From: Naegleria gruberi
Lineage: Eukaryota
Direction: 5' to 3' (one strand)
DNA length: 11,225 bases
NCBI GenBank assembly: GCA_000004985.1
Contig: GG739014.1
The position numbers and the translations under genes were made by a program. The notes beneath the pieces were generated by a model. That model was not told where the DNA came from and ran no database searches. It was given only the letters and a program-made list of their open reading frames with translations. Shown here piece after piece: positions 195 through 11,225 of the stretch (the first letter of the stretch is position 1; each line of letters starts with the position of its first letter).

Positions 195-873
195 TTAAGA
201 ATAATTGATAACCTGAATACGAGAATTATTTCTATCAACGAGTAATATTTCCTGTTGTCTTCTATTATAGCACAATCCGTATGGGTGATGGAATTGACCA
301 AGAGATTTTCCCTTACTGCCAAATGTTTGTTCTTCCTGACCAGTAAATCGATCTAGTATTTTCAGAGATGAATGATATGAATCTGAAACGATCAATTTGT
401 AATTGAAGGGACTAACTTGATCTATACAAATTCCAAAAGGAGAATAGAGTGAATTATTTCCAATCTCCTTGACAAGAATCCATTCATTTGGACTAATTTC
501 TCTAATAATATGAATGTTATTCTTGTCTGGACTTGCTATAATTACCTCTCCAAACTTTGTGAAACATTCCACATTGACAATGTTCGGATTCTTCACATGA
601 ATTTCTTTACCCAATGAATAACTCACATATCGAGTAATTGATTGTAAGATACTTCCATCCACAGTTGAAACAATCTTGATAGCATGATTGTAATTATCAG
701 CCACAAACACCACATTATCCCTGAATGTCTTTCCATACGAAATGGAAATTGATGATGGTTCCTTAAATTCTGTCCTCCCACTTTCATCCAAAATTCCTAC
801 ACACCACGTATAATCCCTATCAAGAGCTCCCAACTTGATATTATTGGTCTTCCACAATACCTTTAAATTCACC
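195..873 (-). CDS. C-terminal fragment of an NHL-repeat (six-bladed beta-propeller type) protein; upstream part lost in assembly gap
   Basis: Open minus-strand frame from gap edge 873 down to stop TAA (revcomp of 195-197). The translation contains several units matching the NHL repeat pattern, e.g. GSKGKSLGQFHHPYGLCYNRRQQEILLVDRNNSRIQVIN, LYSPFGICIDQVSPFNYKLIVSDSYHSSLKILD, FGEVIIASPDKNNIHIIRE and DNVVFVADNYNHAIKIV (Gly-x-Phe...hydrophobic-Val/Ile-Asp...Asn-x-Ile/Val). Confidence 0.7.
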
Positions 874-3800
874 NNNNNNNNNNNNNNNNNNNNNNNNNNN
901 NNNNNNNNNNNNNNNNNNNNNNNNNNNNNNNNNNNNNNNNNNNNNNNNNNNNNNNNNNNNNNNNNNNNNNNNNNNNNNNNNNNNNNNNNNNNNNNNNNNN
1001 NNNNNNNNNNNNNNNNNNNNNNNNNNNNNNNNNNNNNNNNNNNNNNNNNNNNNNNNNNNNNNNNNNNNNNNNNNNNNNNNNNNNNNNNNNNNNNNNNNNN
1101 NNNNNNNNNNNNNNNNNNNNNNNNNNNNNNNNNNNNNNNNNNNNNNNNNNNNNNNNNNNNNNNNNNNNNNNNNNNNNNNNNNNNNNNNNNNNNNNNNNNN
1201 NNNNNNNNNNNNNNNNNNNNNNNNNNNNNNNNNNNNNNNNNNNNNNNNNNNNNNNNNNNNNNNNNNNNNNNNNNNNNNNNNNNNNNNNNNNNNNNNNNNN
1301 NNNNNNNNNNNNNNNNNNNNNNNNNNNNNNNNNNNNNNNNNNNNNNNNNNNNNNNNNNNNNNNNNNNNNNNNNNNNNNNNNNNNNNNNNNNNNNNNNNNN
1401 NNNNNNNNNNNNNNNNNNNNNNNNNNNNNNNNNNNNNNNNNNNNNNNNNNNNNNNNNNNNNNNNNNNNNNNNNNNNNNNNNNNNNNNNNNNNNNNNNNNN
1501 NNNNNNNNNNNNNNNNNNNNNNNNNNNNNNNNNNNNNNNNNNNNNNNNNNNNNNNNNNNNNNNNNNNNNNNNNNNNNNNNNNNNNNNNNNNNNNNNNNNN
1601 NNNNNNNNNNNNNNNNNNNNNNNNNNNNNNNNNNNNNNNNNNNNNNNNNNNNNNNNNNNNNNNNNNNNNNNNNNNNNNNNNNNNNNNNNNNNNNNNNNNN
1701 NNNNNNNNNNNNNNNNNNNNNNNNNNNNNNNNNNNNNNNNNNNNNNNNNNNNNNNNNNNNNNNNNNNNNNNNNNNNNNNNNNNNNNNNNNNNNNNNNNNN
1801 NNNNNNNNNNNNNNNNNNNNNNNNNNNNNNNNNNNNNNNNNNNNNNNNNNNNNNNNNNNNNNNNNNNNNNNNNNNNNNNNNNNNNNNNNNNNNNNNNNNN
1901 NNNNNNNNNNNNNNNNNNNNNNNNNNNNNNNNNNNNNNNNNNNNNNNNNNNNNNNNNNNNNNNNNNNNNNNNNNNNNNNNNNNNNNNNNNNNNNNNNNNN
2001 NNNNNNNNNNNNNNNNNNNNNNNNNNNNNNNNNNNNNNNNNNNNNNNNNNNNNNNNNNNNNNNNNNNNNNNNNNNNNNNNNNNNNNNNNNNNNNNNNNNN
2101 NNNNNNNNNNNNNNNNNNNNNNNNNNNNNNNNNNNNNNNNNNNNNNNNNNNNNNNNNNNNNNNNNNNNNNNNNNNNNNNNNNNNNNNNNNNNNNNNNNNN
2201 NNNNNNNNNNNNNNNNNNNNNNNNNNNNNNNNNNNNNNNNNNNNNNNNNNNNNNNNNNNNNNNNNNNNNNNNNNNNNNNNNNNNNNNNNNNNNNNNNNNN
2301 NNNNNNNNNNNNNNNNNNNNNNNNNNNNNNNNNNNNNNNNNNNNNNNNNNNNNNNNNNNNNNNNNNNNNNNNNNNNNNNNNNNNNNNNNNNNNNNNNNNN
2401 NNNNNNNNNNNNNNNNNNNNNNNNNNNNNNNNNNNNNNNNNNNNNNNNNNNNNNNNNNNNNNNNNNNNNNNNNNNNNNNNNNNNNNNNNNNNNNNNNNNN
2501 NNNNNNNNNNNNNNNNNNNNNNNNNNNNNNNNNNNNNNNNNNNNNNNNNNNNNNNNNNNNNNNNNNNNNNNNNNNNNNNNNNNNNNNNNNNNNNNNNNNN
2601 NNNNNNNNNNNNNNNNNNNNNNNNNNNNNNNNNNNNNNNNNNNNNNNNNNNNNNNNNNNNNNNNNNNNNNNNNNNNNNNNNNNNNNNNNNNNNNNNNNNN
2701 NNNNNNNNNNNNNNNNNNNNNNNNNNNNNNNNNNNNNNNNNNNNNNNNNNNNNNNNNNNNNNNNNNNNNNNNNNNNNNNNNNNNNNNNNNNNNNNNNNNN
2801 NNNNNNNNNNNNNNNNNNNNNNNNNNNNNNNNNNNNNNNNNNNNNNNNNNNNNNNNNNNNNNNNNNNNNNNNNNNNNNNNNNNNNNNNNNNNNNNNNNNN
2901 NNNNNNNNNNNNNNNNNNNNNNNNNNNNNNNNNNNNNNNNNNNNNNNNNNNNNNNNNNNNNNNNNNNNNNNNNNNNNNNNNNNNNNNNNNNNNNNNNNNN
3001 NNNNNNNNNNNNNNNNNNNNNNNNNNNNNNNNNNNNNNNNNNNNNNNNNNNNNNNNNNNNNNNNNNNNNNNNNNNNNNNNNNNNNNNNNNNNNNNNNNNN
3101 NNNNNNNNNNNNNNNNNNNNNNNNNNNNNNNNNNNNNNNNNNNNNNNNNNNNNNNNNNNNNNNNNNNNNNNNNNNNNNNNNNNNNNNNNNNNNNNNNNNN
3201 NNNNNNNNNNNNNNNNNNNNNNNNNNNNNNNNNNNNNNNNNNNNNNNNNNNNNNNNNNNNNNNNNNNNNNNNNNNNNNNNNNNNNNNNNNNNNNNNNNNN
3301 NNNNNNNNNNNNNNNNNNNNNNNNNNNNNNNNNNNNNNNNNNNNNNNNNNNNNNNNNNNNNNNNNNNNNNNNNNNNNNNNNNNNNNNNNNNNNNNNNNNN
3401 NNNNNNNNNNNNNNNNNNNNNNNNNNNNNNNNNNNNNNNNNNNNNNNNNNNNNNNNNNNNNNNNNNNNNNNNNNNNNNNNNNNNNNNNNNNNNNNNNNNN
3501 NNNNNNNNNNNNNNNNNNNNNNNNNNNNNNNNNNNNNNNNNNNNNNNNNNNNNNNNNNNNNNNNNNNNNNNNNNNNNNNNNNNNNNNNNNNNNNNNNNNN
3601 NNNNNNNNNNNNNNNNNNNNNNNNNNNNNNNNNNNNNNNNNNNNNNNNNNNNNNNNNNNNNNNNNNNNNNNNNNNNNNNNNNNNNNNNNNNNNNNNNNNN
3701 NNNNNNNNNNNNNNNNNNNNNNNNNNNNNNNNNNNNNNNNNNNNNNNNNNNNNNNNNNNNNNNNNNNNNNNNNNNNNNNNNNNNNNNNNNNNNNNNNNNN

Positions 3801-4933: not shown

Positions 4934-5301
4934 TGAGTGAGAGCATTAATTGCTTTATGAGTGTCTGAACTTAACGAAATATCTAATATATTATTGGTTT
5001 TCAATTGATTCTCAATGGTTTTCAATAAACTTTCCTGATCTGAAGCATCTACTTTTTCTGCAATATGAATTTTCTTCCACTTTTCAATGCCTGCTTTTTT
5101 TTTTTTTTGAACCTTAATTTCCAATTCTGTCATGTCAGCCAATTTGATTCCAATGGTGTCTGGAATAACAATCTTTCCTTCTTTATCCACAATGATGAAA
5201 TAACTATCATCCTTTGTCTCCATTTGATCTTTGTTTTCGGAAACTGCAAGTTGATATTCTTGTGCATTGATTTGTTTAAATCTTCTAAATTCGAAACCCA
5301 T
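4934..5301 (-). CDS. N-terminal fragment of a protein-coding gene (MGFEFRRFKQINAQEY...), continues into the gap; may be the same gene as the NHL fragment
   Basis: ATG (revcomp of 5299-5301) in an A-rich Kozak-like context (aaaaaATGG). The frame is open for about 122 codons down to the gap edge at 4934. Charged, lysine-rich sequence with a coiled-coil flavour. No family recognised. Confidence 0.5.
5095..5108 (-). repeat. A14 homopolymer inside the coding sequence (T14 on plus strand) encoding Q-K-K-K-K
   Basis: tgc-T14-gaacc on the plus strand reads gtt caa aaa aaa aaa aaa gca ggc (VQKKKKAG) on the minus strand. Confidence 0.8.
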
Positions 5302-6205: not shown

Positions 6206-6566
6206 ATGAACGCAAAGATTATCATTGCCTGTCTCTTGATCGCTGTCTTGTGCTTTGCCACTTTCGGTATGGCTGCTGTGAGTATTTTCAATTTTAAATA
6301 TGCTTATTAATAATCTATTAATCCTTAATAATATTCAGGCTGCTAAGAAGAACCTTAGAAAGGCTCCAGTTGCTAGAAGAGCTTCCACTAAAGCTGTTAG
6401 AACTACCAAACCAACCAAGACTACCAAGACTTTTAAGCCAAAGAAAGCCGGTAAGCCAAAGAAGGCTCCAGTTGTTGTCAAGAAGAGCACTGTTTCCACC
6501 AAGAGTGTTGGTTCTGCTCCAGCTGTCAAAAAGCCTTTCAAGCTTAAGCCAATCTATAATTTTTAA
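6206..6566 (+). CDS. Small secreted, highly basic (Lys/Arg/Pro/Thr-rich, histone-H1-tail-like) protein; two exons (6206-6277, 6339-6566) with a 61-nt phase-0 intron
   Basis: Exon 1 starts at ATG 6206 and encodes MNAKIIIACLLIAVLCFATFGMAA, a typical hydrophobic signal peptide. GTGAGT at 6278 and ...ttcag ending at 6338 define a 61-nt intron that carries in-frame stops. Exon 2 continues in the same frame as AAKKNLRKAPVARRASTKAVRTTKPTKTTKTFKPKKAGKPKKAPVVVKKSTVSTKSVGSAPAVKKPFKLKPIYNF and ends at TAA 6564-6566. Codon usage (gct, aag, cca, ggt, aga) is consistent with the other genes. Confidence 0.6.
6278..6338 (+). other. Spliceosomal intron (GTGAGT ... CAG), 61 nt
   Basis: 5' splice site gtgagt at 6278-6283 and 3' acceptor ttcag at 6334-6338. 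The interior is AT-rich with in-frame stop codons. Length is typical of short fungal introns. Confidence 0.55.
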
Positions 6567-6646: not shown

Positions 6647-7093
6647 CTAACCCAATTTATGGGCACTAATCTTGTGGGGGACTCGTTTGTAAATTGAATT
6701 AATTAAGGAATTATATTTTAGATTTTCATCAATATCTATAGTAACAAGAGTTATTACATTACACCCCTTTTCCAATAAATCATCCATAAACAATAAAAAT
6801 CCATATAGAGCTAGATCGTGAGAGTACTCTCCACATAATGTGTCATTAGAAAATTCAATATCGCTGCCGTATTGTTCCACGTGTCGGTAGAATAAAGTAT
6901 GAGCAAATTCTCTAGCAACAAGATTGACGAGACCAACTTGAATCAAACTAAATTCGGGATCGCTCAAAATAACTGTTGTTGGTCTTTTTAATTGGTCCAC
7001 AAGCACTGGCAGTCCAACTATCAACATTTCGGCTAATAAATTCATAAAATCCAAATACCTAAAGGATGTAAGATTTGCACATGCTGTAAACAA
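6647..7093 (-). CDS. Hypothetical protein fragment (no ATG; ORF-track 'M' is a TTG); open frame ends flush against the left 104-bp repeat
   Basis: 148-codon minus-strand open frame ending at TAG (revcomp of 6647-6649). The first codon at 7091-7093 is TTG, not ATG. The codon above it (7094-7096) is still open, and the frame is only closed by a TAA inside the repeat (7112-7114). Contains a degenerate HExxH-like stretch, AREFAHTLFYRH. Family not recognised. Confidence 0.35.
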   Translation of the reverse strand: MFTACANLTSFRYLDFMNLLAEMLIVGLPVLVDQLKRPTTVILSDPEFSLIQVGLVNLVAREFAHTLFYRHVEQYGSDIEFSNDTLCGEYSHDLALYGFLLFMDDLLEKGCNVITLVTIDIDENLKYNSLINSIYKRVPHKISAHKLG

Positions 7094-7096
7094 AAC

Positions 7097-7200
7097 TGTT
7101 CTTATCGAAGTTTACTGAGATAAAGTAGTGTTTCTTGAAAACAACAATTGAATAAACTAATAATAGAAAGTATGCTCAAAAAAATTGTCATACTATGGTC
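7097..7200 (+). repeat. Left copy of a perfect 104-bp direct repeat (LTR-like or att-like); contains the recombinase ORF start codon
   Basis: tgttcttatcgaagtttactgagataaagtagtgtttcttgaaaacaacaattgaataaactaataatagaaagtatgctcaaaaaaattgtcatactATGgtc is identical base-for-base to 10690-10793. The flanks diverge immediately outside. ATG 7195-7197 lies in the last 6 bp. Confidence 0.9.
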
Positions 7201-8256
7201 GCTAAGAAGCCTCAAGATATTGACTCCTCTTCATCTGATGAAGATCTCCCAGCAGTTGAAGTAGAATACCCCACAACACCAGTGAAAGCAAGAAAACAAC
7301 AAGCTGCTAAGAAGCTTAGAAAGTTAAAGGCCATGTCACCTGTAGCTAATAGAAATAAGCGCAAACAATCTACTTCAGTTTCATCATCTAACAGTGCCTT
7401 AGATGATGGTATTTCAACTGTTGTTTCCAGTTCGTTGCTAAGCAATTCAACTTTGTTGGATAGTTCTTCAACTGCACCCTCTTCGTCAAACAATTCGTCT
7501 TCTTCCAATTCAGGTAGAGATAGTTTTGCCAGTAGTTCATCTGAACATGATATCATGGCGATCAAAGCCCAAATGCAAGAAATGATTGGAGTTTTGAGAA
7601 CCGTAATAGGAAATATCTCTGAACTTACTAAGAAAGTTCAGGAGAGAGAAGAAGAATCAGATGATGATTTTGTTAATCCAGAAGCTATATCTCCAGAAGT
7701 TTGGTTACGTCAAACTTATAGAGACCTTAGAAGTTCTTACAATGTTCCTTCATCCATTGGAGATGATTTATTACTATCTGCAGTATCCTCCGAGATACTT
7801 AAAGACCGTAAACAAGAGGAGACCAAGAGAAGAATTCAATATTTGCTCCTTAAATACAAGGATGTGATTTCCAAGTTTGCCCCAGACATTAGATTGGATG
7901 AGATTAACAGTATTGGTTATTCTAAACTAGTAGAGTTAACTCAAATCAAAATTGAATTGTTGGAATATGCATTGAATTCTCCACTTGATTTTACAGTCAT
8001 GACAGAGATTACAGAACTTTGTAGAATGATTTGCAAAGTTGAAGCCCTCTTCCTTAAAGAAGGTTTACAAGTTTCCACTTTCGATGTTGGTAGAGAATTC
8101 CTTAACAGATACATTTCTACTAATAGTTTCGAAACTGCTGCCGAAAGTGAACTTCATAATATTAGAACAACATATCATTACTACAAAGCAACCAAGCAGC
8201 AACAAGGTCCAAAGGGAATTACCAAGAAGTATTCTAAGAAGAAACCGTTTCAAAAG
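7195..8256 (+). CDS. N-terminal part of the element ORF: Ser-rich, acidic/basic low-complexity region with NLS-like basic cluster, then a helical region; runs into the gap
   Basis: ATG 7195 in a good context (actATGg). It opens a 354-codon frame to the gap edge, with codon usage like neighbouring genes. The N-terminal stretch runs MVAKKPQDIDSSSSDEDLPAVEVEYPTTPVKARKQQAAKKLRKLKAMSPVANRNKRKQ... through to ...KKYSKKKPFQK at the gap edge. No RT, RNase H or integrase motifs are visible in this part. Confidence 0.6.
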
Positions 8257-9893
8257 NNNNNNNNNNNNNNNNNNNNNNNNNNNNNNNNNNNNNNNNNNNN
8301 NNNNNNNNNNNNNNNNNNNNNNNNNNNNNNNNNNNNNNNNNNNNNNNNNNNNNNNNNNNNNNNNNNNNNNNNNNNNNNNNNNNNNNNNNNNNNNNNNNNN
8401 NNNNNNNNNNNNNNNNNNNNNNNNNNNNNNNNNNNNNNNNNNNNNNNNNNNNNNNNNNNNNNNNNNNNNNNNNNNNNNNNNNNNNNNNNNNNNNNNNNNN
8501 NNNNNNNNNNNNNNNNNNNNNNNNNNNNNNNNNNNNNNNNNNNNNNNNNNNNNNNNNNNNNNNNNNNNNNNNNNNNNNNNNNNNNNNNNNNNNNNNNNNN
8601 NNNNNNNNNNNNNNNNNNNNNNNNNNNNNNNNNNNNNNNNNNNNNNNNNNNNNNNNNNNNNNNNNNNNNNNNNNNNNNNNNNNNNNNNNNNNNNNNNNNN
8701 NNNNNNNNNNNNNNNNNNNNNNNNNNNNNNNNNNNNNNNNNNNNNNNNNNNNNNNNNNNNNNNNNNNNNNNNNNNNNNNNNNNNNNNNNNNNNNNNNNNN
8801 NNNNNNNNNNNNNNNNNNNNNNNNNNNNNNNNNNNNNNNNNNNNNNNNNNNNNNNNNNNNNNNNNNNNNNNNNNNNNNNNNNNNNNNNNNNNNNNNNNNN
8901 NNNNNNNNNNNNNNNNNNNNNNNNNNNNNNNNNNNNNNNNNNNNNNNNNNNNNNNNNNNNNNNNNNNNNNNNNNNNNNNNNNNNNNNNNNNNNNNNNNNN
9001 NNNNNNNNNNNNNNNNNNNNNNNNNNNNNNNNNNNNNNNNNNNNNNNNNNNNNNNNNNNNNNNNNNNNNNNNNNNNNNNNNNNNNNNNNNNNNNNNNNNN
9101 NNNNNNNNNNNNNNNNNNNNNNNNNNNNNNNNNNNNNNNNNNNNNNNNNNNNNNNNNNNNNNNNNNNNNNNNNNNNNNNNNNNNNNNNNNNNNNNNNNNN
9201 NNNNNNNNNNNNNNNNNNNNNNNNNNNNNNNNNNNNNNNNNNNNNNNNNNNNNNNNNNNNNNNNNNNNNNNNNNNNNNNNNNNNNNNNNNNNNNNNNNNN
9301 NNNNNNNNNNNNNNNNNNNNNNNNNNNNNNNNNNNNNNNNNNNNNNNNNNNNNNNNNNNNNNNNNNNNNNNNNNNNNNNNNNNNNNNNNNNNNNNNNNNN
9401 NNNNNNNNNNNNNNNNNNNNNNNNNNNNNNNNNNNNNNNNNNNNNNNNNNNNNNNNNNNNNNNNNNNNNNNNNNNNNNNNNNNNNNNNNNNNNNNNNNNN
9501 NNNNNNNNNNNNNNNNNNNNNNNNNNNNNNNNNNNNNNNNNNNNNNNNNNNNNNNNNNNNNNNNNNNNNNNNNNNNNNNNNNNNNNNNNNNNNNNNNNNN
9601 NNNNNNNNNNNNNNNNNNNNNNNNNNNNNNNNNNNNNNNNNNNNNNNNNNNNNNNNNNNNNNNNNNNNNNNNNNNNNNNNNNNNNNNNNNNNNNNNNNNN
9701 NNNNNNNNNNNNNNNNNNNNNNNNNNNNNNNNNNNNNNNNNNNNNNNNNNNNNNNNNNNNNNNNNNNNNNNNNNNNNNNNNNNNNNNNNNNNNNNNNNNN
9801 NNNNNNNNNNNNNNNNNNNNNNNNNNNNNNNNNNNNNNNNNNNNNNNNNNNNNNNNNNNNNNNNNNNNNNNNNNNNNNNNNNNNNNNNNNNNN
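8257..9893. other. Assembly gap (1637 N) inside the element ORF
   Basis: Run of n. About 545 codons could be hidden here. The reading frame across it is undefined. Confidence 1.
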
Positions 9894-10657
9894 AAGGTCA
9901 AACATCTCGTGTTGAAGCCTTGAGACCATCCCTTCAATTTTGGGCCAATATTGAGAGAAGAGTTTTTCCAATTTCATGGTCTTATGATAAGATTAAAAGA
10001 GGAATTACTCTTATTTGGTCCTTGATTGATAGAAAAGCTTTGAAACGTGATCCAATTTTCTATCATCATATTGAAGGTTTCATTCAGAGAAAAGATCATT
10101 ATGATCCTTTCATTTTCAAACTCACTAGTGCCATGTTAGTCATTGGTTTCAGACTTTTCGCTAGACCAGGTGAATTAGCTAGACTCAAGTGGGGTTATGT
10201 TACAAAGCTTAGAAATGGTAACATCAAATTAGATCTCAGTGGTCACAAAACAGATTTCTTTCTACTAGAAAAGCCGATTACTATTGACAAGCATCTTGAA
10301 AATCCTTCAGTGTGTCCAGTGAAATTGCTTTTTGATTACATGAACACTGTACAGCATTTCAAAAAAGCAGATTCACCATTGTTTTCATTGCAGGACAATA
10401 TTTTCTTCAACACTGAAGATGTTTCTCAACTTATCAAGAATGCTATGTTCTCTGTTGATTCAGAAATCACTGTTTCTGGTCACAGTTTACGTATTGGTGC
10501 AACTACTGAGAGTATTATCAAGGGAATTCCTACTCAGGATATTATTATGGGGACTAGACATAAGGATGTGAAATCTTTACAACCTTATCAAAGACAAGAA
10601 GCTCTTGCAGCTCGCCACTTGTCTACTACTCTCCTTTCTCGGGACAATATCCATTAG
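9894..10657 (+). CDS. C-terminal part of the element ORF: tyrosine recombinase (phage-integrase-fold) catalytic domain, ends at TAG 10655-10657
   Basis: Translation from the gap edge begins GQTSRVEALRPSLQFWANIERR. It continues through LFARPGELARLKWGYV (box-I Arg in the RxxELxxLxW pattern) and LDLSGHKTDFFLL (beta-hairpin Lys). It then reaches VSGHSLRIGATTESIIKGIP (box-II HxLR). It ends with IMGTRHKDVKSLQPYQRQ (conserved His plus the Tyr nucleophile). The full R-K-H-R-H-Y catalytic set is present in canonical order and spacing. Y sits about 25 aa from the C-terminus. Confidence 0.85.
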
Positions 10658-10689
10658 TTTATTTATTGTTGGTTTTCTTTTAAGAAACA

Positions 10690-10793
10690 TGTTCTTATCG
10701 AAGTTTACTGAGATAAAGTAGTGTTTCTTGAAAACAACAATTGAATAAACTAATAATAGAAAGTATGCTCAAAAAAATTGTCATACTATGGTC
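10690..10793 (+). repeat. Right copy of the perfect 104-bp direct repeat; carries AATAAA (10744-10749) 3' of the recombinase stop
   Basis: Identical to 7097-7200 and starts 32 bp after TAG 10655-10657. Its internal ATG (10788) would give only an 11-codon ORF (MVPPLPTLYYY*). Confidence 0.9.
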
Positions 10794-10810
10794 CCACCCT
10801 TGCCCACCCT
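10794..10810 (+). repeat. CCACCCT tgc CCACCCT: GC-rich 7-bp direct doublet abutting the right repeat
   Basis: ccaccct at 10794-10800 and 10804-10810. It is strikingly GC-rich in an AT-rich context and starts exactly at the repeat boundary. Confidence 0.6.
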
Positions 10811-10832
10811 CTATTATTATTAGTTTATTCAA
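10810..10832 (-). repeat. Inverted copy of 20 bp of the 104-bp repeat (pairs with 10741-10760), potential long hairpin across the right element boundary
   Basis: tctattattattagtttattcaa is the reverse complement of ttgaataaactaataataga (10741-10760 in R2; 7148-7167 in R1), with a 3-bp insertion. Confidence 0.6.
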
Positions 10833-10834
10833 AT

Positions 10835-10852
10835 CAAAGGTTCTAACCTTTG
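10835..10852. repeat. Perfect 18-bp palindrome caaaggtt-ct-aacctttg
   Basis: 8-bp arms caaaggtt / aacctttg are exact reverse complements with a 2-nt centre. Confidence 0.7.
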
Positions 10853-11018
10853 TCCTTAATACTTTGGAATGTGATTTTTTAATCAATCCCCAAATATTTT
10901 CTCAATTGATTGAAAGATTTCACTCTATTTGTATTATTGAAAGATGATTGTTATCATCTTTTTATCTTTGTATTATTATTTGATATTTGACATCATTTAT
11001 TGATGTTTTTTATCATGA

Positions 11019-11060
11019 TTGGTGATCTAAAACCAATTGTTGGTGATCTAAAACCGACAG
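11019..11060 (+). repeat. 21-bp tandem repeat x2 (ttggtgatctaaaacc + 5 variable nt)
   Basis: ttggtgatctaaaaccaattg at 11019-11039 and ttggtgatctaaaaccgacag at 11040-11060. The first 16 nt are identical. Confidence 0.7.
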
Positions 11061-11116
11061 ATCAACTTTATGTTGATTAGAAGGTATCTGATACCTTTCC
11101 CTTACTATTAGTAAGG
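11061..11116. repeat. Cluster of short perfect inverted repeats: atcaac-tttat-gttgat (11061-11077), aaggtatc-t-gatacctt (11081-11097), ccttacta-t-tagtaagg (11100-11116)
   Basis: Each pair of arms is an exact reverse complement. The two 17-bp palindromes have 8-bp arms and a single-nt centre and are separated by 2 bp. Confidence 0.7.
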
Positions 11117-11225
11117 CAATATGTACTGAACATACCTCTTTTCTCATTCTCGTTTTGATTCGTAAGTGTCAAGACGGTTGAGTAGGTTTTTTAATTCTTA
11201 ACTTTTTGGTTTTTACCGATTTTTC

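What the first reader, a model, noticed from the sequence alone, without database searches (positions are those of the whole stretch)
7097..10793. Tyrosine-recombinase gene bracketed by perfectly identical 104-bp direct repeats: candidate eukaryotic YR mobile element with an atypical terminal architecture
Two 104-bp segments (7097-7200 and 10690-10793) are identical at every base, and the sequence outside them diverges immediately. Between them lies one long ORF, gap-interrupted, whose C-terminus is a complete tyrosine-recombinase catalytic domain.

Perfect identity of the repeats implies a recent duplication or insertion event, or ongoing homogenisation. In eukaryotes, YR-encoding elements fall into two groups. 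Cryptons are DNA elements that encode a recombinase alone, often with a DNA-binding domain, and have no long terminal repeats. DIRS/Ngaro/PAT-like elements are retroelements whose pol carries RT and RNase H with the YR domain at its C-terminus. Their termini are inverted repeats plus an internal complementary region, or split direct repeats (A1...B1A2B2).

Here the repeats are simple LTR-like direct repeats. The only other structure is a 20-bp inverted copy of an internal piece of the repeat placed just outside the right copy. That combination matches neither textbook layout and may represent an undescribed variant.
Basis: partly seen in the sequence, partly recalled or inferred. Interest (0 to 1): 0.85.

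Follow-up and report, generated by a model that had tools for sequence, protein, structure and literature searches.

The report
Naegleria tyrosine-recombinase retrotransposon, gap-interrupted copy
The repeats and the recombinase gene are real, but they belong to a roughly 4-kb retrotransposon of a known kind (DIRS order, PAT/DIRS1-like) that has landed inside a Naegleria gruberi gene; its reverse transcriptase sits in the assembly gap.

Summary
The two 104-bp repeats (7097-7200, 10690-10793) are identical, and the C-terminal ORF is a complete tyrosine recombinase (YR).

- **Source:** the window is a whole 11,225-bp Naegleria gruberi scaffold.
- **Ungapped copy:** a metagenome contig (L031) is 99.2-99.6% identical to the element. 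It shows three ORFs: a gag-like ORF1, a pol with reverse transcriptase plus a weak Dam-like methyltransferase match, and the YR. The unit is 4018 bp.
- **Class:** this is a YR retrotransposon of the DIRS order, not a Crypton and not a new class.
- **Left end:** it is fixed at 7097. L031 has a different flank there, and homology to the N. gruberi gene NAEGRDRAFT_52787 stops at 7096.
- **Copy number:** N. gruberi gene models place the family on eight scaffolds.
- **Termini:** they are not simple LTRs.
  - The 37 nt before the right repeat are an inverted copy of the repeat's middle.
  - The junction forms a near-palindrome.
  - More distant relatives show split direct repeats with the same C-run, and a second B copy about 350 nt further on.
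- **Right end:** no second B copy was found in the 432 nt left before the scaffold ends, so the right end is unresolved.

Interest is modest.

The parts
6650..7096 (-). Host gene fragment. It encodes the C-terminal 149 residues of a copy or allele of N. gruberi NAEGRDRAFT_52787, and is cut off exactly at the element's left end.
   Evidence: tblastn of P0137 (678 aa) matches residues 530-678 at 98% identity over 7096..6650. Nothing upstream of residue 530 is found anywhere in the window. The intact gene exists on a 297-kb N. gruberi scaffold and in an environmental contig (P0139).
7097..7200 (+). Left repeat A1 (104 bp). It is the left terminus of the element and holds the 5' leader and the first two codons of ORF1 (ATG at 7195).
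   Evidence: Identical to 10690-10793. Copy L031 has a different flank up to the same first base, TGTTCTTATCG.
7170..7189 (+). Conserved leader motif GTATGCTCAAAAAAATTGTC inside A (also at 10763-10782). It may be a promoter or start-site signal.
   Evidence: The same 20-mer lies upstream of ORF1 in L030, whose ORF1 protein is only 37% identical. ATGCTCAAAAAAAT is present in L006, and CATGCTCAAA at the 3' end of contig L032.
7195..8256 (+). ORF1 (gag-like position), first 354 of about 375 codons; the rest is in the gap.
   Evidence: 100% coverage match to the N. gruberi 375-aa proteins P0014, P0141 and P0143. Homologous to the ORF1 of relatives L001 and L030. No Pfam hit. The ORF1 of distant relative L007 carries a CCHC zinc knuckle.
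8257..9893 (.). Assembly gap (1637 N). It replaces about 2080 nt: the end of ORF1, the whole pol (RT, RNase H-like, Dam-like methyltransferase) and the first 73 or so codons of the YR.
   Evidence: The window sequence on both sides aligns to L031 61-1211 and 3292-4182. The L031 pol matches RVT_1 at 3e-26, RVT_3 at 0.017 and Dam at 7.8e-4.
9896..10657 (+). C-terminal 253 codons plus stop of the tyrosine recombinase.
   Evidence: 99% identical to N. gruberi P0001 and P0145.
10653..10689 (+). B1: the spacer between the YR stop codon and A2. It is an inverted, slightly degenerate copy of the middle of A (7129-7161 / 10722-10754).
   Evidence: no equal match in 500 shuffles. The same B-to-A complementarity is seen in L007, L011 (where it covaries) and L006.
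10681..10697 (+). Near-palindrome TAAGAAACA|TGTTCTTA spanning the B1|A2 junction. It is the internal image of the presumed circle junction and a candidate recombinase core site.
   Evidence: Read directly from the sequence. AACATG recurs at the corresponding place in L006 and L032. Its function is inferred.
10690..10793 (+). Internal repeat A2 (104 bp).
10793..10809 (+). C-run motif CCCACCCTTGCCCACCC (four C3 runs) exactly where A1/A2 identity ends. The complement fits the G-quadruplex sequence rule.
   Evidence: It is the only such motif in the window, and none arose in 300 dinucleotide shuffles. The same kind of motif sits at the A2 end in L007, L011, L014 and L015, and downstream of the YR in L006 and L012.
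10815..10832 (+). Inverted arm, perfectly complementary to A positions 10741-10758. It forms a 17-18-bp stem with the C-run in the loop.
   Evidence: Folds of 10645-10840 give z=-4.95 (RNA) and z=-5.33 (minus-strand DNA). An analogous arm follows the C-run in L007 and L011.
10833..11225 (+). Downstream segment of unsettled status. It is probably the element's 3' non-coding segment (called 'C' here), with the scaffold ending before the expected second B copy.
   Evidence: It does not encode the missing upstream part of the interrupted host gene. In relatives the C-run-to-B2 distance is 343-406 nt. No copy of B1 is found here.

Best explanation
**What it is**
The feature is one copy of a retrotransposon family with a 4018-bp unit, about 4.1 kb from the first base of A1 to the end of A2. 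The family encodes a tyrosine recombinase and belongs to the DIRS order, in the methyltransferase-bearing PAT/DIRS1-like group. It encodes a gag-like ORF1, a pol with RT, an RNase H-like region and a Dam-like methyltransferase region, and a YR whose reading frame overlaps pol. This copy sits inside the coding sequence of a copy or allele of N. gruberi gene NAEGRDRAFT_52787.

**What the repeats are**
The 104-bp repeats are the 'A' parts of a split-direct-repeat system.
- A1 is the left terminus.
- A2 is internal. It is preceded by B1, an inverted copy of the middle of A. It is followed by a four-C-run motif and then a second inverted copy of A.

**How it probably works (inferred from what is known of the DIRS order)**
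1. The element is transcribed from A1.
2. The RNA is reverse transcribed.
3. The cDNA is closed into a circle whose junction looks like the internal B1|A2 junction (TAAGAAACA|TGTTCTTA). The A/B complementarity helps bring the ends together.
4. The YR integrates the circle, either into new sites or into resident copies. Integration into resident copies gives head-to-tail tandems.

**Shown:** gene content, the repeats, the left junction, copy number and a tandem copy.
**Inferred:** every mechanistic step.
For: - Source: the YR fragment is 99% identical to N. gruberi proteins. The contig length recorded for gene model P0142 equals the window length.
- Ungapped copy: L031 is 99.2-99.6% identical on both sides of the gap and carries ORF1, pol and YR. 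RVT_1 scores 3e-26 and Dam-like 7.8e-4.
- Relatives L001, L033, L007 and L014 have the same gene order. The Dam-like match is above Pfam's cut-off in L007 and L014.
- The YR frame stays open for about 340-700 codons over pol in L031, L001, L007 and L014. Piednoel 2011 (PMC3266345) describes this overlap for DIRS1-like elements.
- Left end: two different flanks meet the same first base, and host-gene homology stops at 7096.
- Multi-copy: gene models lie on eight N. gruberi scaffolds.
- L031 shows a head-to-tail second copy that has diverged by 3%.
- Split direct repeats with B1 abutting A2 occur in L007, L011, L014 and L015, and B1/B2 in L006.
- B is complementary to A in four families, and the pairing covaries between L007 and L011.
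- The C-run sits at the A2 end in every family where that end can be defined.
Against: - The RT is not visible in the window itself. It is inferred from a 99%-identical copy elsewhere.
- No N. gruberi pol protein appeared among the best 120 pol homologues.
- The methyltransferase match in this family is weak (19.6 bits against a cut-off of 28.1).
- No B2 copy was found in the 432 nt after A2, so the split-direct-repeat assignment for this family rests on analogy.
- In relatives B2 does not abut A2, as the textbook A1-[ORFs]-B1A2B2 scheme (PMC8547959) would have it. It lies about 350 nt further on.
- The two halves of the element are joined only across a scaffold gap and could come from different copies.
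Confidence: 0.85

Rival explanations
1. The right repeat is simply the start of a second, truncated head-to-tail unit. On this reading an integrated concatemer or tandem was cut off six bases after the ATG, and A2 is not a designed internal repeat.
For: In L031, from the same family, A2 is followed by a second ORF1 start (97% identical, ATG changed to ATA). L033, L034 and L035 also run from the YR through 138 nt into ORF1.
Against: - The truncation point coincides with a four-C-run motif in at least three unrelated families, followed in two of them (the window family and L007/L011) by an arm complementary to A.
- In those relatives a second B copy follows.
- Together these argue for a canonical architecture rather than an accident.
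Confidence: 0.15
2. Scaffolding artefact. The contig carrying the host gene, A1 and ORF1, and the contig carrying the YR, B1 and A2, belong to different copies of the family and were joined across the 1637-N gap. The perfect A1/A2 identity would then say nothing about the age of one insertion.
For: - The window is a small scaffold made of three contigs.
- The family has near-identical copies on eight scaffolds.
- The gap length is wrong by about 440 nt.
- The interrupted host gene does not resume after A2.
Against: - Both halves are in the correct order and orientation for one element.
- The window-specific residues in ORF1 (Ile) and in the YR (Met-Asn) are not found together in any other copy seen.
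- Even if the join is wrong, what the element is does not change.
Confidence: 0.2
3. A genuinely new terminal layout: plain LTR-like 104-bp direct repeats with the element ending at or just after A2 (about 10832).
For: No B2 copy longer than 11 nt lies within the 432 nt after A2. The 11-mer ATTAGTTTATT occurs on both sides of A2 (10653-10663 and 10819-10829).
Against: - The host gene does not resume after 10793 or after 10832.
- The closest relative with 3' sequence (L006) and more distant ones place B2 343-406 nt after the C-run, which is about where the scaffold ends.
- In relatives the B1/B2 pairs are 97-100% identical over 53-99 nt, unlike the 11-nt match here.
Confidence: 0.07
4. A Crypton-type DNA transposon, or a domesticated cellular recombinase gene.
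For: In the window alone only a YR domain and an N-terminal ORF without known domains are visible.
Against: - The 99%-identical ungapped copy has an RT between them.
- The family is multi-copy, lies in different flanks and interrupts a host gene.
Confidence: 0.02

Closest known systems
PAT-like elements (Pat1, TOC, Kangaroo): DIRS-order retrotransposons with a methyltransferase domain and split direct repeats
   Same: Gag-like ORF, RT/RNase H plus a Dam-like methyltransferase region, a YR, and direct rather than inverted repeats with the internal copy downstream of the YR. The closest named pol hit outside Naegleria is a protein from Panagrolaimus, a nematode of the group in which Pat1 was found, at 29% identity.
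   Different: - B2 was not found for this family.
- In relatives B2 lies about 350 nt beyond A2 instead of abutting it.
- A four-C-run motif marks the A2 end.
- B is an inverted copy of part of A.
- I found none of these last three features in the papers I could search.
DIRS1-like elements (Dictyostelium DIRS-1 and relatives)
   Same: Same domain set, with a long overlap of the YR frame with pol. There is internal sequence complementary to terminal-repeat sequence, which recalls the internal complementary region shown to be essential for DIRS-1 (PMC7192593). It also tends to sit next to or within other copies.
   Different: There are no inverted terminal repeats. The complementary segments match the middle of A, not the outer ends of the element.
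Ngaro and VIPER elements
   Same: YR retrotransposons with the split direct repeats A1-[ORFs]-B1A2B2 (PMC8547959).
   Different: Ngaro and VIPER lack the methyltransferase domain and usually lack ORF overlap (PMC3266345). Here a Dam-like region and a long overlap are present.
Cryptons
   Same: They encode a YR and produce no long terminal inverted repeats.
   Different: Cryptons have no RT. This family has one.
LTR retrotransposons
   Same: Direct repeats bracket gag and pol, and the RT is of the Ty3/Gypsy-related type.
   Different: - It has a YR instead of a DDE integrase.
- The repeats are only 104 bp and include the ORF1 start codon.
- No tRNA primer-binding site was recognised.

Membership tests
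DIRS order (tyrosine-recombinase retrotransposons) | Reverse transcriptase encoded in the same element as the YR | tested here: met
   The RT is hidden by the gap in the window. It is present in L031, which is 99.2-99.6% identical on both sides of the gap (RVT_1 at 3e-26).
DIRS order (tyrosine-recombinase retrotransposons) | Tyrosine recombinase with the catalytic R-K-H-R-H/W-Y residues | tested here: met
   These positions are conserved in the alignment of 11 homologues. Pfam PF00589 scores below its cut-off for this copy (22.6 bits) and above it for homologue P0004 (38.9 bits).
DIRS group sensu Szitenberg 2014 (DIRS1-like plus PAT) | Methyltransferase-like domain at the C-terminus of pol | tested here: inconclusive
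   The Dam (PF05869) match falls at the same place in every pol. It scores 19.6 bits in L031 and 24.8 in L001, both below the 28.1 cut-off, and 28.9 in L007 and 31.2 in L014, both above it.
PAT-like | Split direct repeats: A1 at the left end and B1-A2-B2 at the right | tested here: inconclusive
   A1/A2 are present and identical, and a B1-like segment is present. No B2 lies within the remaining 432 nt of the scaffold. Relatives L006, L007, L011, L014 and L015 do have B1/B2.
DIRS1-like sensu stricto | Inverted terminal repeats plus an internal region complementary to the outer ends | tested here: not met
   Neither the window nor L031 has terminal inverted repeats. The only inverted copies match the middle of A.
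DIRS1-like sensu stricto | Long overlap of the YR and pol reading frames | tested here: met
   The YR frame is open over 2136-4046 in L031 while pol ends at 3150. The same holds in L001, L007 and L014.
Ngaro / VIPER | No methyltransferase domain and usually no ORF overlap | tested here: not met
   A Dam-like region and a long overlap are both present.
Crypton | YR-only DNA transposon without an RT | tested here: not met
   An RT lies between ORF1 and the YR in the ungapped copy.
LTR retrotransposon | DDE integrase, LTRs with a tRNA primer-binding site, and target-site duplication | tested here: not met
   No integrase domain turned up in any ORF. There is no tRNA or Rfam match. The C-run does not keep the TGG that a tRNA primer-binding site needs across families. 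Target-site duplication cannot be tested because the right end is missing.

The most novel reading that the evidence does not exclude
Two features shared by these split-direct-repeat YR retrotransposons could be the cis signals for priming and for closing the cDNA into a circle. The first is a motif of four C3 runs, a G-quadruplex-type sequence on the cDNA strand, placed exactly at the end of the internal A repeat. The second is a B repeat that is the inverted complement of part of A, with covariation between families. For DIRS-order elements the primer of reverse transcription is still unknown (PMC7192593). I found neither feature described in the papers I could search.
Probability: 0.25. Interest if true: 0.6.

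Novelty: new member of a known kind. Interest (0 to 1): 0.35.

Why it matters
- **Annotation:** it corrects a chimeric N. gruberi gene model (NAEGRDRAFT_76524).
- **Activity:** Naegleria holds an intact, recently active YR retrotransposon family. An earlier survey could only call DIRS1-like elements there uncertain and degraded (PMC3266345).
- **Natural filled-versus-empty site:** the interrupted NAEGRDRAFT_52787-like fragment can be compared with the intact gene on a 297-kb scaffold.
- **Wider point:** the conserved C-run and the A/B complementarity give concrete sequences to mutate when asking how DIRS-order elements prime reverse transcription and rebuild their ends. That question is still open.

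Tried and rejected
- **Fetching N. gruberi DNA:** P0001, P0002, P0003, P0014 and P0137 are not indexed, so no other genomic copy and no empty site could be read.
- **Searching for B2:** local alignments of the sequence upstream of A2 against 10794-11225 gave only the 11-mer ATTAGTTTATT. An alignment with the L006 3' end gave no convincing match.
- **Long inverted terminal repeats or an ICR** in the window and in L031: none found.
- **The C-run as a tRNA primer-binding site:** rejected, because the TGG needed at its 5' side is absent in L006 and L014.
- **Homology ending at 7096 as an exon boundary:** rejected. There is no AG acceptor on the minus strand there, and L031 independently puts the element's first base at 7097.
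- **Searches that found nothing useful:**
  - The PDB sequence search with the YR fragment gave only chance hits.
  - The viral-contig scan found no relatives.
  - There were no Rfam families and no tRNAs.
- **L029** (YR 76% identical) is truncated within the YR and has no 3' region.
- **L001** has a truncated YR followed by a new ORF1 start, so it says nothing about termini.
- **Literature:** a search for G-quadruplexes in YR retrotransposons returned nothing relevant.
Full report
**1. The observation**

The two 104-bp segments 7097-7200 and 10690-10793 are identical at every base, and identity stops at both edges. An 18-nt perfect inverted copy of an internal piece of the repeat lies at 10815-10832, 21 nt beyond the right repeat. 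No equal match arose in 500 shuffles.

The C-terminal fragment 9896-10654 scores just below Pfam's cut-off for Phage_integrase (E=1e-4). Several of its homologues carry precomputed PF00589 hits, and P0004 scored above the cut-off when tested (38.9 bits). An alignment of 11 of them keeps the catalytic Arg, Lys, His-x-x-Arg, His/Trp and Tyr positions.

**2. Where the window comes from**

- The YR fragment and ORF1 are 99-100% identical to 'predicted proteins' of Naegleria gruberi.
- One of these, P0142 (NAEGRDRAFT_76524, 569 aa), is recorded on a contig of exactly 11,225 bp and carries the window-specific residues. The window is therefore a complete small scaffold of the NEG-M assembly.
- That gene model splices ORF1 directly onto the YR across the N run, so it is a chimera.

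**3. What is in the gap**

- A metagenome relative (L001) first showed the gene order: ORF1, then a 642-aa pol with RVT_1 (1.8e-23) and a Dam-like region, then the YR.
- A search with that pol led to contig L031. It is the same family as the window element: 99.2% identical to 7097-8256 and 99.6% identical to 9894-10793.
- L031 is ungapped and has three ORFs:
  - ORF1 of 372 aa;
  - pol of 637 aa (RVT_1 at 3e-26, RVT_3/RNase H-like at 0.017, Dam-like at 7.8e-4);
  - YR of 297 aa.
- The 1637 N in the window stand for about 2080 nt, and the repeat period is 4018 bp.
- The YR frame stays open for about 340 codons over the end of pol. L001, L007 and L014 show the same overlap. Piednoel et al. describe this overlap for DIRS1-like elements (PMC3266345).

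The element is therefore a tyrosine-recombinase retrotransposon of the DIRS order, in the methyltransferase-bearing group. It is not a Crypton.

**4. Evidence that it is mobile, and where it starts**

- L031 has an unrelated flank up to the same first base, TGTTCTTATCG.
- On the minus strand, 7096..6650 encodes residues 530-678 of N. gruberi NAEGRDRAFT_52787 at 98% identity. Homology stops at 7096, one base before the element. The first 529 residues are encoded nowhere in the window.
- The intact 678-aa gene lies on a 297-kb scaffold, and an intact 679-aa version is in an environmental contig. This copy therefore interrupts a coding sequence, either of an allele or of a close paralogue.
- Gene models of the family lie on eight N. 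gruberi scaffolds.
- In L031 the element is followed head-to-tail by a second copy that has diverged by 3% and has lost its ATG.

**5. The termini**

There are no inverted terminal repeats, so the DIRS1 layout is not met. The repeats are not bare LTRs either.

- The whole 37-nt spacer between the YR stop and A2 (10653-10689, here called B1) is an inverted copy of the middle of A.
- The B1|A2 junction reads TAAGAAACA|TGTTCTTA, a near-palindrome centred on the element's first base.
- A2 ends in CCCACCCTTGCCCACCC. This is the only motif with four C3 runs in the scaffold, and none arose in 300 dinucleotide shuffles.
- The 18-nt arm follows and pairs with A2. The region 10645-10840 folds far better than shuffles, with z=-4.95 as RNA and z=-5.33 as minus-strand DNA.

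**6. Comparison with relatives**

A metagenome scan with the YR alignment returned more distant elements with the same gene order.

- L007/L011 and L014/L015 have split direct repeats: A1 at the left, B1 abutting A2, and B2 further right.
- L006, an AT-rich Naegleria-like relative, shows the YR, B1, an A-like segment with the ORF1 start, a C-run, about 340 nt, and then B2 at the contig end.
- In every family where the end of A2 can be defined, it coincides with a four-C-run motif:
  - CCCACCCACCCACCC (L007);
  - CCCACCCCCCCACCC (L011);
  - CCCTCCCTCCCTCCC (L014/L015).
- In L007 and L011 the motif is followed by an arm complementary to the 3' part of A.
- B is complementary to an internal part of A in the window family, L007, L011 and L006, with no equal match in 500 shuffles in each case. 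Between L007 and L011 both partners change together.
- The distance from the C-run to B2 is 343-406 nt. The window has only 432 nt after A2, and no B2 was found there. For this family the right end is therefore unresolved. It probably lies at or beyond the scaffold end. This fits the host gene not resuming after A2.

**7. How it most likely works**

By analogy with the DIRS order (PMC3266345, PMC7192593, PMC8547959), the steps would be:

1. transcription from A1;
2. reverse transcription;
3. formation of a circular DNA whose junction is mirrored by the internal B1|A2 junction;
4. YR-mediated integration without target duplication, sometimes into resident copies. That would explain the tandem seen in L031.

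The A/B complementarity could bring the two cDNA ends together, much as the internal complementary region does in DIRS-1. The C-run and hairpin next to A2 could mark a priming or strand-transfer point. None of these steps is shown here.

**8. What is already known**

- Piednoel et al. 2011 counted seven DIRS1-like copies in N. gruberi. They called their presence uncertain because the copies looked degraded.
- RepeatMasker reports 89 DIRS fragments in N. lovaniensis (PMC6125883).

The kind of element is therefore known, and so is its presence in the genus. What this analysis adds:

- the element's sequence in full through A2, taken from the 99%-identical copy;
- an exact left junction inside a host gene;
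- the correction of a chimeric gene model;
- two conserved non-coding features that I did not find described in the papers I could search.

**9. Caveats**

- The RT is inferred from a 99%-identical copy, not read in the window.
- The two halves of the element are linked only by a scaffold gap, in a genome with many near-identical copies. The perfect A1/A2 identity is therefore weak evidence for a recent single insertion.
- The methyltransferase match is weak in this family.
- The split-direct-repeat assignment rests on relatives.

Noticed in passing
window 7195-10657 (gene model P0142 / NAEGRDRAFT_76524): The deposited 569-aa N. gruberi protein joins ORF1 (to ...KKYSKKKP) directly to the YR (GITLIWSL...) across the N gap. 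It is a chimera of two ORFs of the retrotransposon.
   Followed up: yes
window 195-873 (-) and 4934-5301 (-): The left part of the scaffold holds the C-terminal part of an NHL-repeat protein (Pfam NHL at 4.3e-10) and, beyond a 4060-N gap, what looks like the N-terminal part of a gene on the same strand. They may be one gene.
   Followed up: partly
window about 6206-6566 (+): A small gene for a lysine-rich protein with a signal-peptide-like start (MNAKIIIACLLIAVLCFATFGMAA...). It appears to be split by a short AT-rich GT...AG intron at about 6280-6338.
   Followed up: no
window 7170-7189 and 10763-10782; L030 8-27; L006 about 689-702: The 20-mer GTATGCTCAAAAAAATTGTC in the leader of A is kept intact in a family whose ORF1 protein is only 37% identical. 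A shorter core, ATGCTCAAAAAAAT, is kept in a third family. It may be a promoter or start-site signal.
   Followed up: partly
L031 4079-4324: In the environmental copy of the same family, A2 is followed by a second ORF1 start that has diverged by 3% and has ATG changed to ATA. This is a head-to-tail tandem of two copies of different age.
   Followed up: yes
L007 4766-5024 and 5105-5376; L014 7361-7868: The more distant relatives carry arrays of 50-110-nt tandem repeats between the YR gene and B1. The Naegleria family has none.
   Followed up: no
window 11019-11034 and 11040-11055: There are two exact copies of TTGGTGATCTAAAACC, 21 nt apart, in the segment downstream of A2.
   Followed up: no
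window 7151-7156 and 10744-10749: A contains AATAAA inside the segment that pairs with B1 or with the downstream arm. If it is used as a poly(A) signal at A2, the RNA would end inside A2, as in a retroviral R region. AT-rich sequence gives this hexamer often by chance.
   Followed up: no
L001 3560-3740: In this relative the YR is cut short after GHSLRIGAT. About 20 nt later a new ORF1-like start (MSNKLAPSASVDDISDSDSS...) follows. This looks like another nested or tandem arrangement.
   Followed up: partly
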